Shown piece after piece: positions 1-889 of a DNA stretch of 889 bases. Numbering within the stretch: position 1 is the stretch's first letter; every line of letters starts with the position of its first letter. The notes under the pieces were generated by a model that did not search any database, was not told the DNA's origin, and was given only the letters and a program-made list of their open reading frames with translations. The position numbers and the translations under genes were made by a program. The DNA is from Escherichia coli. Lineage in GTDB: Bacteria > Pseudomonadota > Gammaproteobacteria > Enterobacterales > Enterobacteriaceae. The stretch lies in NCBI RefSeq assembly GCF_003334385.1, contig NZ_QOWN01000143.1; one strand, 5' to 3'.

Positions 1-602
1 GACGACCACAGCGTTCTGTTCTGCAGTTGGTCCGTGGTGCTGTCCGCCGTCTCCCTGACCATCCGGATGTTAAAGGGGCGGGGAGGCAGATTATCCAGAA
101 TCACCGAGGCCAGGAACTGTGAGGTGGTCTTGCCGTTAATGGTGACATCCTTTTCTGTCACCCAGTTACCGTTACGCTGTAACTGAATCAGCAGACGGAC
201 AGAGGACGGATTACGGTCACCCTTTGACGTGGTCTCCACCAGTGACTGCACCCCGAAGGTAACCCGCAGACGGTCAATGTTCGCTGACGTGATGGTGCGC
301 GTCACCGGCTTTGCCTTCGTCACCTCCACGCCCAGTGCGGTTTCCGCCCCGGAGGACTCAAAGCCTTCCGGCGGTGTCTGCTCCTGCTCCCCGGCACGCC
401 AGACGGCGGTCACACCGTGTATCACGGGATTACCGTCCGTGTCCGTCAGCGGGGTTTTGTTCACCAGAATACTCTGCAGTCCCTTCACCGGGCCTTCTAT
501 CGGTCCCTCACCAATCGCATCAATCACACTCATCATCTGCGTGGATTTGAGATTATCCTTCGCCTCGCGCGGTGTGTGCGCCCTGCCGCCGCCTTTGCCC
601 AT
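1..602 (-). CDS. J: Host specificity protein J / tail tip central fibre protein, N-terminal 200 codons; start codon at 602..600, ORF continues beyond the left edge of the window
   Basis: Reverse complement of 1-602 is an uninterrupted reading frame: ATG at 602..600, then 200 sense codons with no stop (MGKGGGRAHTPREAKDNLKSTQMMSVIDAIGEGPIEGPVKGLQSILVNKTPLTDTDGNPVIHGVTAVWRAGEQEQTPPEGFESSGAETALGVEVTKAKPVTRTITSANIDRLRVTFGVQSLVETTSKGDRNPSSVRLLIQLQRNGNWVTEKDVTINGKTTSQFLASVILDNLPPRPFNIRMVRETADSTTDQLQNRTLWSS...). From memory this aligns colinearly with the N-terminus of phage lambda J (MGKGSSKGHTPREAKDNLKSTQLLSVIDAISEGPIEGPVDGL...TPPEGFESSG...TRTITSANIDRLRFTFGVQALVETTSKGDRNP...NLPPRPFNIRM...DSTTDQLQN.TLWSS) at high but not complete identity. 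A strong Shine-Dalgarno sits 7 nt upstream. No database search was run. Confidence 0.9.
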   Translation of the reverse strand, partial: MGKGGGRAHTPREAKDNLKSTQMMSVIDAIGEGPIEGPVKGLQSILVNKTPLTDTDGNPVIHGVTAVWRAGEQEQTPPEGFESSGAETALGVEVTKAKPVTRTITSANIDRLRVTFGVQSLVETTSKGDRNPSSVRLLIQLQRNGNWVTEKDVTINGKTTSQFLASVILDNLPPRPFNIRMVRETADSTTDQLQNRTLWS

Positions 603-606
603 TACA

Positions 607-615
607 TCACCTCTT
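607..615 (-). promoter_or_regulatory. Ribosome binding site (Shine-Dalgarno) of J
   Basis: Minus-strand sequence upstream of the ATG reads ggtAAGAGGTGAtgtaATG; the GAGG core (613..610) lies 7 nt from the start codon at 602. Confidence 0.65.
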
Positions 616-635
616 ACCGTGATAATTGTTCACTC

Positions 636-668
636 ACAAAAACAACAGGCACCCCGGAGGATGCCTGT
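636..668 (-). terminator. Rho-independent terminator-like hairpin on the tail-operon strand, about 35 nt upstream of the J start
   Basis: Minus-strand RNA: ACAGGCA-U-CC-[UCCG]-GG-G-UGCCUGU followed by UGUUUUUGUG. The 7 bp GC-rich stem (668..662 paired with 651..645) extends to about 10 bp via one U.G wobble and two C-G pairs around a 4-nt loop. On the plus strand the same hairpin is followed by ATCATGACTG (no U tract), so it is orientation-specific. Pairing was checked by hand only, not with a folding program. Confidence 0.55.
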
Positions 669-675
669 ATCATGA

Positions 676-711
676 CTGAATAAAAATTCTGAATATCTTC
701 ACATTTTCACA
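676..711. repeat. Short tandem direct repeats: CTGAATA x2 (676-682, 689-695) and TTCACA x2 (698-703, 706-711)
   Basis: Read directly from the sequence: gaCTGAATAaaaattCTGAATAtcTTCACAttTTCACAaa. The repeat periods are 13 and 8 bp. Function unknown; they overlap the candidate promoter and a CRP-like site. Confidence 0.5.
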
Positions 712-733
712 AACTGACTGTGGCGCTGATAAT
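706..733 (+). promoter_or_regulatory. Candidate sigma70 promoter firing antisense to the tail operon
   Basis: TTCACA (706-711; 5/6 to TTGACA), a 16 bp spacer, then GATAAT (728-733; 5/6 to TATAAT). Predicted transcription start near 740. It sits in the AT-rich spacer and a plus-strand terminator lies about 60-100 nt downstream. Hexamer matching only, no experimental support. Confidence 0.3.
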
Positions 734-739
734 TTCGCT

Positions 740-837
740 GCGTTAATTTTTTTTGTCGTGACATAAGAATAATTCCTTACACTTAATCTTCGTAACTCTC
801 CCGCAGTTCCTGTCCGCGATCACTGCGGGATTTTTTT
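740..837 (+). ncRNA. Candidate small antisense RNA of about 95-100 nt (hypothetical), from the predicted start near 740 to the plus-strand terminator
   Basis: No plus-strand ORF exists here: there is no ATG between 673 and 845, and GTG/TTG starts hit stops within 1-8 codons. The interval is bounded by a promoter-like element upstream and a strong intrinsic terminator downstream. I do not recognise it as a known sRNA family. Confidence 0.2.
799..837 (+). terminator. Rho-independent terminator on the plus strand (antisense to the tail genes)
   Basis: Perfect inverted repeat TCCCGCAGT (799-807) / ACTGCGGGA (822-830) gives a 9 bp stem with 6 G-C pairs around a 14-nt loop, followed immediately by TTTTTTT (831-837) and then ATTCTTTTT. 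On the minus strand the hairpin is preceded by an A-run and followed by GAGTTACGAAG, so it would not terminate tail-operon transcription. The loop is longer than typical. Confidence 0.6.
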
Positions 838-844
838 ATTCTTT

Positions 845-889
845 TTACCCCTGCCGCCCGATAACCACGACCTTTCCGCCCCCGCCTTC
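845..889 (-). CDS. C-terminal end (14 codons plus stop) of a probable tail assembly protein I homologue; gene enters from beyond the right edge
   Basis: Reverse complement of 845-889 translates as EGGGGKVVVIGRQG followed by TAA (stop at 847..845). From memory lambda I ends ...DEGDGGQVVVIGR, so the Gly-run plus VVVIGR motif matches, and I lies directly upstream of J in lambda. The fragment is very short, and the other two minus frames are also open across this edge, so the call rests on motif and synteny. Confidence 0.5.
   Translation of the reverse strand, partial: EGGGGKVVVIGRQG

What the first reader, a model, noticed from the sequence alone, without database searches (positions are those of the whole stretch)
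799..847. Plus-strand terminator abuts the I stop codon, insulating I from antisense transcription
The U-tract of the plus-strand terminator (831-837) ends 7 nt before the complement of the I stop codon (845-847). On the sense (minus) strand the same element is only an A-run followed by a hairpin with no U-tract, so it would not stop I-to-J transcription. This asymmetric arrangement would allow an antisense promoter in the spacer without convergent transcription into I. The 14-nt loop is unusually long, and its CCGCG core might instead form a protein-binding or processing site.
Basis: inference. Interest (0 to 1): 0.3.

Follow-up and report, generated by a model that had tools for sequence, protein, structure and literature searches.

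The report
Terminator of a PasB-family prophage sRNA
The hairpin and T-run next to the tail gene I stop codon form the transcription terminator, and probably the Hfq-binding 3' end, of a small regulatory RNA gene of the known PasB / EcOnc22-24 family, which sits backwards between tail genes I and J of lambda-like prophages; it is real but ordinary.

Summary
On the + strand, 799-807 pairs perfectly with 822-830 (9 bp, 14-nt loop, -15.7 kcal/mol, z = -4.0). A U7 tract follows at 831-837 and ends 7 nt before the complement of the gene I stop codon (845-847). The reverse strand folds equally well but has no U tract.

The element is not a free-standing insulator. It is the intrinsic terminator of an ~83-nt sRNA gene (about 755-837, + strand) that lies antisense in the I-J spacer. 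The spacer is homologous to the PasB locus of EPEC E2348/69. PasB is an Hfq-dependent sRNA shown by Northern blot, and its annotated 3' end is the last U of the same tract. By my coordinate mapping, the spacer also matches EcOnc22/23/24 of EHEC Sakai.

The idea of a CCGCG protein-binding site in the loop is not supported: the loop is the most variable part of the 3' module, and its length here comes from an allele-specific 5-nt insertion.

The window carries a common but uncharacterised allele, 73% identical to PasB. Interest is low. By-products are about 20 alleles, tandem arrays, a conserved CRP-like site and a sodC insertion at the same spot.

The parts
799..830 (+). Terminator hairpin: 5' arm 799-807, loop 808-821, 3' arm 822-830.
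   Evidence: The arms form a perfect 9-bp inverted repeat. The fold is -15.7 kcal/mol with z = -4.0. In a scan anchored on the promoter, and so unbiased for the terminator, 41 of 51 unique units carry the stem core CCCGCAG/CTGCGGG. The alternative stems keep pairing through double changes.
831..837 (+). U7 tract; predicted 3' end of the sRNA at about 837.
   Evidence: The run is read directly from the sequence. The homologous E2348/69 PasB 3' end (1466261) is the last U of its U7 tract. RIL-seq records a longest U tract of 7 for PasB.
755..837 (+). PasB-family sRNA gene, about 83 nt by homology. The primary transcript may start near 740.
   Evidence: Window 590-889 aligns at 91% to the E2348/69 PasB locus. 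The sRNA itself is 73% identical to PasB. The PasB Northern probe matches 20 of 23 nt at 810-832. The Hfq-CRAC peaks EcOnc22/23/24 map to the equivalent body after coordinate correction.
783..791 (+). Conserved single-stranded motif TTAATCTTC just upstream of the terminator; candidate seed.
   Evidence: Its mean identity across 77 unique units is 0.94, while the flanking body is 0.56-0.65. It is unpaired in the MFE fold. Zhu et al. propose that the PasB seed lies in this position.
706..733 (+). Sigma-70 promoter-like site Pa: -35 TTCACA at 706-711, a 16-nt spacer, and -10 GATAAT at 728-733. The predicted start is about 740.
   Evidence: The site matches 10 of 12 consensus positions, and 2 sites were found against 0.5 expected. 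The -10 is TATAAT in E2348/69. A729 is kept in 74 of 77 units and T733 in 76 of 77.
744..749 (+). Alternative -10-like hexamer TAATTT (Pb). It would give a start at about 755-757, which matches the 83-85 nt RNA.
   Evidence: T744 is kept in 77 of 77 units, A745 in 77 of 77 and T749 in 74 of 77. It is retained in the sodC-class spacers that have lost Pa. Which promoter is used was not resolved.
688..703 (+). Conserved palindrome TCTGA-N6-TCACA, a CRP-like site and a likely regulator-binding site of the sRNA promoter.
   Evidence: It has one mismatch to TGTGA-N6-TCACA, and 0.03 such matches are expected in shuffles. It is present in 87 of 97 terminator-anchored units at a fixed distance. That CRP actually binds is inference.
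845..889 (-). 3' end of tail assembly gene I, with the stop TAA as the complement of 845-847.
   Evidence: The translation is EGGGGKVVVIGRQG*. Homologous records annotate this gene as I. The full-length homologue hits phrog_32, tail assembly protein.
1..602 (-). 5' part of the host-specificity / central tail fibre gene J, with ATG as the complement of 600-602.
   Evidence: It hits phrog_1727 and phrog_31 at E = 1e-110. Homologous records annotate it as J.
636..668 (-). Sense-strand hairpin (668-645) followed by UUGUUUUUGU, about 35 nt upstream of the J start. It is not part of the sRNA.
   Evidence: The terminator scan lists it. The fold is -18.7 kcal/mol with z = -4.5. It has a G.U pair on the minus strand that is a C/A mismatch on the + strand. 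Lambda has an analogous hairpin plus U-run before J.

Best explanation
The hairpin 799-830 plus U7 831-837 is the Rho-independent terminator of a small RNA gene transcribed on the + strand, antisense to the late tail genes, from a promoter inside the I-J spacer. The RNA (about 755-837, ~83 nt) belongs to the PasB family of EPEC, which I also equate with EcOnc22/23/24 of EHEC. These are prophage-encoded, Hfq-dependent, trans-acting sRNAs.

Inferred mechanism: RNA polymerase starts at a sigma-70 promoter, which lies at 706-733 and/or uses the -10 at 744-749 and is probably controlled through the conserved palindrome 688-703. It transcribes about 83-98 nt and terminates at the U tract. The terminator hairpin with its 3' oligo-U tail then serves as the Hfq-binding module. 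The single-stranded region just upstream, including the conserved UUAAUCUUC, base-pairs with target mRNAs.

Keeping the transcript out of gene I is a consequence of this terminator, not a separate function. The whole unit is an insertion (a moron) between the I stop codon and an older hairpin in front of J.

Shown here: sequence, fold, homology, conservation and synteny. Shown by others for homologues: expression, size, Hfq dependence and RIL-seq partners. Inferred for this allele: expression, Hfq binding and targets.
For: Fold and statistics.

Homology to the E2348/69 PasB locus:
- Window 590-889 aligns at 91%.
- PasB is annotated at NC_011601 1466343-1466261 on the minus strand, 83 nt, between E2348C_1436 (I) and E2348C_1437 (J), which are on the plus strand.
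- The Northern probe AATCCCGCAGTGATCGCGGAGCT is the reverse complement of the terminator, and 20 of 23 nt match window 810-832.

Experimental data on PasB:
- Its level drops in the hfq deletion strain (log2FC -6.8, padj 2e-40, and -2.4).
- It has 37 RIL-seq partners, 30 of them CDS or 5'UTR.
- It is the second RNA in 99-100% of chimeras, and its longest U tract is 7.

EHEC Sakai:
- EcOnc22/23/24 are Hfq-CRAC peaks on the + strand in the I-J spacers of Sp15, Sp14 and Sp11. The Northern band is ~85 nt and is destabilised in the hfq deletion strain.
- After a +137 coordinate correction, calibrated on AgvB and AsxR, the peaks cover exactly the sRNA body.

Conservation and context:
- The architecture is conserved in 12 phage and prophage spacers and in 77 unique units.
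- The terminator always lies 4-7 nt from the I stop.
- Compensatory stem variants exist: CCCACAG/CTGTGGG, and CCCGT...ACGGG.
- Lambda has only a 60-nt spacer and lacks the unit.
Against: There are no expression, 3'-end or Hfq data for this particular allele, which is only 73% identical to PasB and to EcOnc22. Rfam 15 has no family for it, so no curated model confirms membership. The 5' end is unresolved: the consensus promoter predicts about 98 nt, while the homologues are reported as 83-85 nt. The EcOnc22-24 equivalence rests on my coordinate-offset calibration and is not stated in any paper I read. In the canonical class the stem is invariant, so covariation support comes from only two or three variant classes.
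Confidence: 0.9

Rival explanations
1. The hairpin's main role is to insulate gene I from convergent antisense transcription, and the antisense transcript itself has no function.
For: The terminator is unidirectional and lies 4-7 nt from the I stop in every unit examined. In E2348/69 the counts for I and J are very low (baseMean 5 and 15) against 482-1082 for PasB.
Against: The transcript is a conserved, Hfq-dependent RNA with 37 RIL-seq partners. It has a conserved single-stranded motif and a conserved promoter. Selection therefore acts on the RNA, not only on stopping transcription. Lambda does without both the promoter and the terminator, so there is nothing to insulate unless the sRNA gene is present.
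Confidence: 0.07
2. The long loop with its CCGCG core is a protein-binding or RNA-processing site.
For: CCGCG occurs in the two commonest allele groups.
Against: The loop is the most variable segment of the 3' module (0.48 mean identity). At least 20 different loops occur on the same stem. The extra length is an allele-specific 5-nt insertion. Within the window's own allele group CCGCG changes to CCGTG (L003).
Confidence: 0.03
3. The hairpin works on the sense (minus) strand in the late I-J mRNA, as an RNase III site or as a 3' stabiliser of the I segment. In this reading the + strand terminator is secondary.
For: The minus strand folds slightly better (-17.0 kcal/mol, z = -4.1). The hairpin lies directly after the I stop codon.
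Against: The T-run on the + strand is conserved (0.96), and the + strand RNA is experimentally detected in homologues. Nothing on the minus strand requires the A-run. Lambda lacks this hairpin.
Confidence: 0.05
4. The antisense RNA and a small sense-strand ORF (764-699, 21 aa, with an AAGGA Shine-Dalgarno sequence) form a type I toxin-antitoxin-like pair.
For: The ORF and a plausible ribosome-binding site exist in the window. The 5' end of the sRNA overlaps its start.
Against: The start codon is not conserved. The commonest variant of the same allele has ATA in place of ATG (GATATA against GACATA), and E2348/69 and other alleles have no ATG there. The peptide is basic and hydrophilic, unlike type I toxins.
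Confidence: 0.02

Closest known systems
PasB sRNA of EPEC O127:H6 E2348/69 (Pearl Mizrahi et al. 2021, PMC8550237; Zhu, Shabalina and Storz 2026, bioRxiv 10.64898/2026.05.13.724894)
   Same: It has the same position and orientation: antisense in the I-J spacer of a lambdoid prophage, with its 3' end a few nt from the I stop. The promoter region is homologous. The 3' arm of the terminator and the U7 tract are identical. The motif TT(A/G)ATCTTC upstream of the terminator is conserved.
   Different: The sRNA is only 73% identical overall, and 65% in the 44-nt body. The window allele has a 5-nt insertion in the terminator loop. The -10 is GATAAT here and TATAAT in PasB. This allele is too divergent to be one of the variants with 'a few nucleotide differences' described in the preprint. 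Its expression and targets are untested.
EcOnc22 / EcOnc23 / EcOnc24 of EHEC O157:H7 Sakai (Tree et al. 2014, PMC4104026, Table S2)
   Same: These are Hfq-crosslinked RNAs on the strand opposite to I and J, in the I-J spacers of prophages Sp15, Sp14 and Sp11. The Northern band is ~85 nt and is destabilised without Hfq. They share the terminator stem and the TTAATCTTC motif.
   Different: They are a different allele, 72.5% identical to the window. The identification depends on my +137 correction between genome versions. The papers I read do not link them to PasB.
Other prophage sRNA morons of EHEC and EPEC (AgvB, AsxR, PasA/PasC, PasD/STnc100)
   Same: They are short Hfq-dependent sRNAs with their own promoter and intrinsic terminator, inserted in lambdoid prophages, often convergent with phage genes.
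   Different: Those lie at the moron site downstream of pR' and Q, near the lysis genes, not in the tail operon. There is no sequence similarity, and Rfam models for them do not hit the window.
Canonical Hfq-binding 3' module of enterobacterial sRNAs (Otaka et al. 2011; Ishikawa et al. 2012, as cited in PMC4104026)
   Same: It has a GC-rich terminator hairpin, a 3' tail of 7 U, and a U-rich single-stranded stretch just upstream (UUAAUCUUCGUAACUCU).
   Different: Hfq binding was not tested for this allele. The loop is longer than in most such terminators.

Membership tests
PasB / EcOnc22-24 sRNA family | The gene lies in the spacer between tail genes I and J of a lambdoid (pro)phage, on the strand opposite to I and J. 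| tested here: met
   I and J were identified by translation, PHROGs and the annotation of homologues. In E2348/69, PasB is on the minus strand and I and J are on the plus strand. Of 142 terminator matches, 100 have I and J homologues antisense on both sides.
PasB / EcOnc22-24 sRNA family | Sequence homology to the reference sRNA and its locus. | tested here: met
   The locus alignment is 91% identical. The sRNA is 73% identical, and the terminator 3' arm plus U tract is identical. The Northern probe matches 20 of 23 nt. Homology in the body is weak (65%).
PasB / EcOnc22-24 sRNA family | An RNA of about 83-85 nt is expressed, with its 3' end at the U tract. | not testable with these tools
   This is shown only for homologues, by Northern blot and RNA-seq coverage. 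There are no data for this allele.
PasB / EcOnc22-24 sRNA family | Hfq binding and Hfq-dependent stability. | not testable with these tools
   Homologues show log2FC -6.8 in the hfq deletion strain, RIL-seq chimeras and CRAC peaks. Here only the sequence features of an Hfq module are present.
Rho-independent (intrinsic) terminator | A GC-rich stem-loop is followed immediately by a U-rich tract on the transcribed strand. | tested here: met
   The 9-bp stem has 6 G-C pairs, folds at -15.7 kcal/mol, and is followed directly by U7. The opposite strand has no U tract.
Rho-independent (intrinsic) terminator | Transcript 3' ends map to the U tract. | not testable with these tools
   In the homologue, the annotated end 1466261 is the last U, and RIL-seq read ends lie at 1466260. 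This was not measured for the window's allele.
Phage moron (autonomous transcription unit inserted between conserved phage genes) | It has its own promoter and terminator, and it is absent from related phages at the same junction. | tested here: met
   The promoter-like site and the terminator are both present. The lambda I-J spacer is 60 nt and lacks the unit. Other phages carry 1-4 tandem units, or a sodC gene, at the same junction.
Type I toxin-antitoxin / cis-antisense pair | A conserved small toxin ORF lies on the opposite strand and is overlapped by the RNA. | tested here: not met
   The start codon of the 21-aa ORF 764-699 is lost in the commonest variant of the same allele and in other alleles.
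CRP-dependent promoter (considered for the sRNA promoter) | A TGTGA-N6-TCACA site lies at a class I or class II distance from the start, and expression depends on CRP-cAMP. | tested here: inconclusive
   The core matches 9 of 10 positions at 688-703, with 0.03 matches expected by chance. It is conserved in 87 of 97 units. Its centre is 48.5 bp from the -10 at 744; in lac P1 this distance is 49.5 bp (my own knowledge). From the -10 at 728 it is 32.5 bp, which is 3 bp off class II. PasB is higher in LB than in DMEM, which fits. No binding or crp-mutant data exist.

The most novel reading that the evidence does not exclude
PasB-family RNAs may also act in cis or between prophages. Each one is perfectly complementary to the I-J junction of the late tail mRNA of its own phage type, and partly complementary to that of related phages. 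A resident prophage could therefore use it to modulate or sabotage J (host-specificity protein) expression from its own late transcript, or from co-resident or superinfecting lambdoid phages. The ~20 alleles and the tandem arrays of up to four different units at one junction would then reflect diversifying competition between phages, not only host regulation.
Probability: 0.1. Interest if true: 0.55.

Novelty: new member of a known kind. Interest (0 to 1): 0.15.

Why it matters
For the finding as stated, little changes. It is the ordinary terminator of a known kind of prophage sRNA, and genome annotation simply misses it because there is no Rfam family or RefSeq feature for it.

It has modest practical value:
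- It links two literatures (EHEC EcOnc22-24 and EPEC PasB) to one locus type.
- It shows the family is much more diverse than BLAST with the 83-nt reference reveals. I found about 20 alleles at 90% identity, with conserved promoter, seed-like motif and terminator stem but variable body and loop.
- It marks the I-J junction as a recurrent insertion site for antisense cargo, carrying 1-4 sRNA units or sodC.

These points could help build a covariance model and design experiments on how Stx and related prophages rewire host regulation.

Tried and rejected
- **Rfam.** The permissive scan of the window found nothing near threshold. The best hit was MicX at 21 bits against a gathering score of 75, driven by the terminator. 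A gathering-threshold scan of the E2348/69 and Sakai spacers found no family either.
- **AgvB / AsxR lead.** I recalled these anti-sRNAs first, but they lie at the pR' moron site, not in the tail operon.
- **Small sense-strand ORFs** (764-699 and 823-743). I rejected them as genes because the start codons are not conserved.
- **RNAalifold on 20 mixed alleles.** It returned no consensus structure, because MAFFT misaligned the alternative-stem class. I used per-unit folds and stem tabulation instead.
- **Promoter pattern TCTGANNTNNTTCACATTT.** It does not match the window's own variant. About half of the unique hits had no hairpin plus T-run downstream and looked like chance matches, so I filtered by terminator and context.
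- **Minus-strand promoter.** I looked for one that would use the sense-strand terminator at 668-636 and found none by scan or by eye.
- **5' end.** I could not decide between promoter Pa (start ~740) and Pb (start ~756). Both -10 elements are conserved.
- **Cis targets.** No RIL-seq chimeras between PasB and the I or J genes appear in the stored part of Table S3, but the late genes are silent in those cultures, so this says little.

Full report
**Context.** The window is part of the tail region of a lambda-like (pro)phage, read antisense. On the minus strand, positions 889-845 encode the C-terminus of tail assembly protein I (EGGGGKVVVIGRQG*, with TAA as the complement of 845-847). Positions 602-1 encode the first 200 residues of the host-specificity / central tail fibre protein J (phrog_1727 and phrog_31, E = 1e-110). 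Homologous records are annotated the same way. The I-J spacer is 603-844, which is 242 nt. The J start is the complement of 600-602.

**The observation.**
- Arms 799-807 and 822-830 are perfectly complementary, with 14 nt between them.
- On the + strand the fold is -15.7 kcal/mol, z = -4.0, and none of 200 shuffles folds as well.
- Seven T follow directly (831-837), and 7 nt later comes the complement of the I stop.
- The reverse strand folds as well (-17.0 kcal/mol), but GAGAGUUACG follows it, so the element terminates in one direction only.

**What it is.** The spacer is homologous to the I-J spacer of prophage PP6 in EPEC E2348/69 (91% over window 590-889). Pearl Mizrahi et al. (PMC8550237, Table S6) annotate the sRNA PasB at that locus:
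- It lies at NC_011601 1466343-1466261 on the minus strand and is 83 nt long.
- It sits between E2348C_1436 (I, 1465575-1466255, +) and E2348C_1437 (J, 1466496-1469969, +).
- Its Northern probe is the reverse complement of the terminator, and 20 of 23 nt match window 810-832.
- Its annotated 3' end is the last U of the U7 tract, 6 nt from the I stop. This corresponds to window position 837.

PasB behaves as an Hfq-dependent sRNA:
- It is confirmed by Northern blot and depends on Hfq (log2FC -6.8 and -2.4 in the hfq deletion strain).
- It has 37 RIL-seq partners, 30 of them CDS or 5'UTR, and is the second RNA in 99-100% of chimeras, which is the signature of an Hfq-bound sRNA.
- It is more abundant in LB ('non-activating') than in DMEM.
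- Zhu, Shabalina and Storz (bioRxiv 2026) describe PasB as embedded in an operon of phage structural genes. [quoted passage not shown]

**Link to EHEC.** Tree et al. (PMC4104026, Table S2) list three homologous Hfq-CRAC peaks on the + strand: EcOnc22 (Sp15), EcOnc23 (Sp14) and EcOnc24 (Sp11). EcOnc22 gives a ~85 nt Northern band and is destabilised without Hfq. In the current Sakai record, the I-J spacers of these three prophages lie at exactly those places, with I and J on the minus strand. The table uses older coordinates. I calibrated the shift with Rfam hits for AgvB and AsxR and obtained about +137. With that shift the three peaks cover GAUGCCUGAAAAAUAACUCCAUAACGUUAAUCUUCAUCGUUCUCUCCCGCAGCUCCGCUAACUC, which runs from the sRNA body into the terminator loop. 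None of the papers I read states the PasB = EcOnc22-24 equivalence. It is my inference.

**Conservation.** Twelve phage and prophage spacers share the whole architecture. They include Stx1a, Stx2a and Stx2c phages, VT1-Sakai, phage 2851 and the PhiR phages. I then ran two scans of IMG/VR.
- *Terminator-anchored scan*. It gave 142 matches across the loci then held, and 100 of them have I and J homologues antisense on both sides. Within the scan loci alone there were 128 matches, 97 of them I-adjacent units. In all 97 the T-run ends 4-7 nt from the I stop.
- *Promoter-anchored scan*, unbiased for the terminator. It gave 51 unique units with a hairpin plus T-run 134-152 nt downstream. Of these, 41 have the stem core CCCGCAG/CTGCGGG. 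Nine have CTCCCGT...ACGGGAG, where the fifth pair changes from C-G to T-A. One has CCCACAG/CTGTGGG, where the fourth pair changes from G-C to A-T.

The helix is therefore maintained through double changes.

Across 77 unique units, the conserved segments are these:

| Segment | Window coordinates | Conservation (fraction identical to the window, or count) |
|---|---|---|
| Palindrome TCTGA-N6-TCACA | 688-703 | about 1.0, partly by selection of the set; 87 of 97 in the unbiased set |
| A -10 hexamer | 728-733 | A729 74/77, T733 76/77 |
| TAnnnT | 744-749 | T744 77/77, A745 77/77, T749 74/77 |
| T-run | 750-754 | 0.83 |
| TTAATCTTC | 783-791 | 0.94 |
| Stem arms | 799-807 and 822-830 | 0.83 and 0.95 |
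| U tract | 831-836 | 0.96 |
| sRNA body | 755-782 | 0.56-0.65 |
| Terminator loop | 808-821 | 0.48 |

At 90% identity there are about 20 alleles. The window belongs to the commonest one in my sample. It is 73% identical to E2348/69 PasB and 72.5% identical to Sakai EcOnc22.

It was right that this is a one-way terminator serving an antisense promoter in the spacer. But the unit is an sRNA gene, and the hairpin plus U7 tail is also the standard Hfq-binding module, so 'insulation of I' is a by-product. The long loop is an allele-specific 5-nt insertion (TTCCTGTCCGCGATCA against CTCCGCGATCA). The CCGCG core is not conserved, even within this allele group, where CCGTG also occurs. A specific binding or processing site in the loop is therefore unlikely.

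**How it most likely works.**
- *Shown:* the sequence elements, the fold, homology and synteny.
- *Shown for homologues:* a ~83-85 nt Hfq-dependent RNA ending at the U tract, with many mRNA partners.
- *Inferred for this allele:* transcription starts in the spacer and terminates at 831-837. Hfq binds the 3' module. The unpaired region 783-798 pairs with targets (it is unpaired in the MFE fold).

The 5' end is unresolved. Promoter Pa (TTCACA-16-GATAAT at 706-733, a 10-of-12 match) predicts a start near 740 and a ~98 nt RNA. The invariant TAnnnT at 744-749 (Pb) predicts a start at ~756 and 82-83 nt, which matches the reported sizes. The sodC-class spacers keep Pb but not Pa.

**Origin.** Lambda itself has a 60-nt I-J spacer with no such unit. 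It does have a sense-strand hairpin plus U-run just before the J ribosome-binding site (AAACCGCCTGCGGGCGGTTTTGTCATTT). The window has an analogous sense-strand hairpin at 668-645 followed by UUGUUUUUGU (-18.7 kcal/mol, z = -4.5). Its U.G pair is a mismatch on the other strand. The sRNA unit is therefore an insertion (a moron) between the I stop and an older pre-J hairpin.

**Verdict.** The feature is real, and its kind is already known and understood. This allele is uncharacterised. Interest is low.

Noticed in passing
window 636-668 (minus strand); lambda L017 215-243: A strong sense-strand hairpin plus U-rich run (ACAGGCAUCCUCCGGGGUGCCUGUUGUUUUUGU, -18.7 kcal/mol, z = -4.5) sits about 35 nt upstream of the J start, inside the late operon. 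One pair is G.U on the sense strand and a C/A mismatch on the other strand. Lambda has an unrelated hairpin plus U-run at the same place. What it terminates or stabilises is unknown.
   Followed up: partly
window 688-703 (+): TCTGAATATCTTCACA matches the CRP core TGTGA-N6-TCACA at 9 of 10 positions (0.03 matches expected by chance). It is conserved at a fixed distance in 87 of 97 units. Its centre is 48.5 bp from the invariant TAnnnT at 744, which is close to lac class I geometry. PasB is higher in LB than in glucose-rich DMEM. Together these suggest catabolite control, which is untested.
   Followed up: partly
window 706-749 (+): There are two overlapping promoter candidates. Pa has -35 at 706-711 and -10 at 728-733. 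Pb has its -10 at 744-749, with T744, A745 and T749 nearly invariant across all alleles. They predict RNAs of 98 nt and 83 nt. Only the shorter size matches published sizes, so the RNA either starts at Pb or is processed at the U-run 747-754.
   Followed up: partly
L063 7471-8460; also L027, L031, L076, L093, L162, L163, L189, L198: Some phages carry 3-4 tandem PasB-like units of different alleles in one I-J spacer of about 930 nt. Each unit is about 220 nt and has its own CRP-like site, -10, body and terminator. One unit uses a different terminator stem (CTCCCGT...ACGGGAG).
   Followed up: partly
L042 2151-3070; also L036, L037, L044, L054, L061, L104, L114: In another class the I-J spacer (about 850 nt) carries a sodC-like Cu/Zn superoxide dismutase ORF (by eye; not run against a family library) on the strand antisense to I and J, with its own terminator. 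It replaces the sRNA promoter, but the body and terminator of the window's allele remain downstream, starting at GTTAATG.
   Followed up: partly
Sakai NC_002695.2: L012 1192-1431, L013, L014: After a ~+137 nt shift between genome versions, the EcOnc22/23/24 Hfq-CRAC peaks (Tree et al. 2014) fall on the PasB-like units of Sp15, Sp14 and Sp11. The EPEC PasB and EHEC EcOnc22-24 names therefore appear to describe one family. The papers I read do not make this link.
   Followed up: yes
window 735-752 and 820-837 (+): A direct repeat, TCGCTGCGTTAATTTTTT / TCACTGCGGGATTTTTTT (78% identical), has copies 85 nt apart, about the length of the sRNA. The 5' boundary of the sRNA thus resembles the 3' half of its own terminator. 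It may be a relic of unit duplication, or it may be chance.
   Followed up: no
window 699-764 (minus strand): A 21-aa basic ORF (MSRQKKLTQRNYQRHSQFVKM) with an AAGGA ribosome-binding site is overlapped by the 5' end of the sRNA. Its ATG is not conserved, even in the commonest variant of the same allele, so it is probably not a gene.
   Followed up: yes
L008 (phage PPompW_EH1992) spacer, 342 nt: This spacer has different sequence where the other phages carry the pre-J hairpin, including extra sequence between the J start and the sRNA promoter. The sRNA unit itself (E2348/69-type allele) is intact.
   Followed up: no
window 636-837 (+): There is a weak Rfam hit to the Vibrio MicX sRNA (21 bits against a gathering score of 75, E = 0.035). 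It is driven mainly by the terminator and a short UUCCUUAC match, and I treat it as chance.
   Followed up: yes
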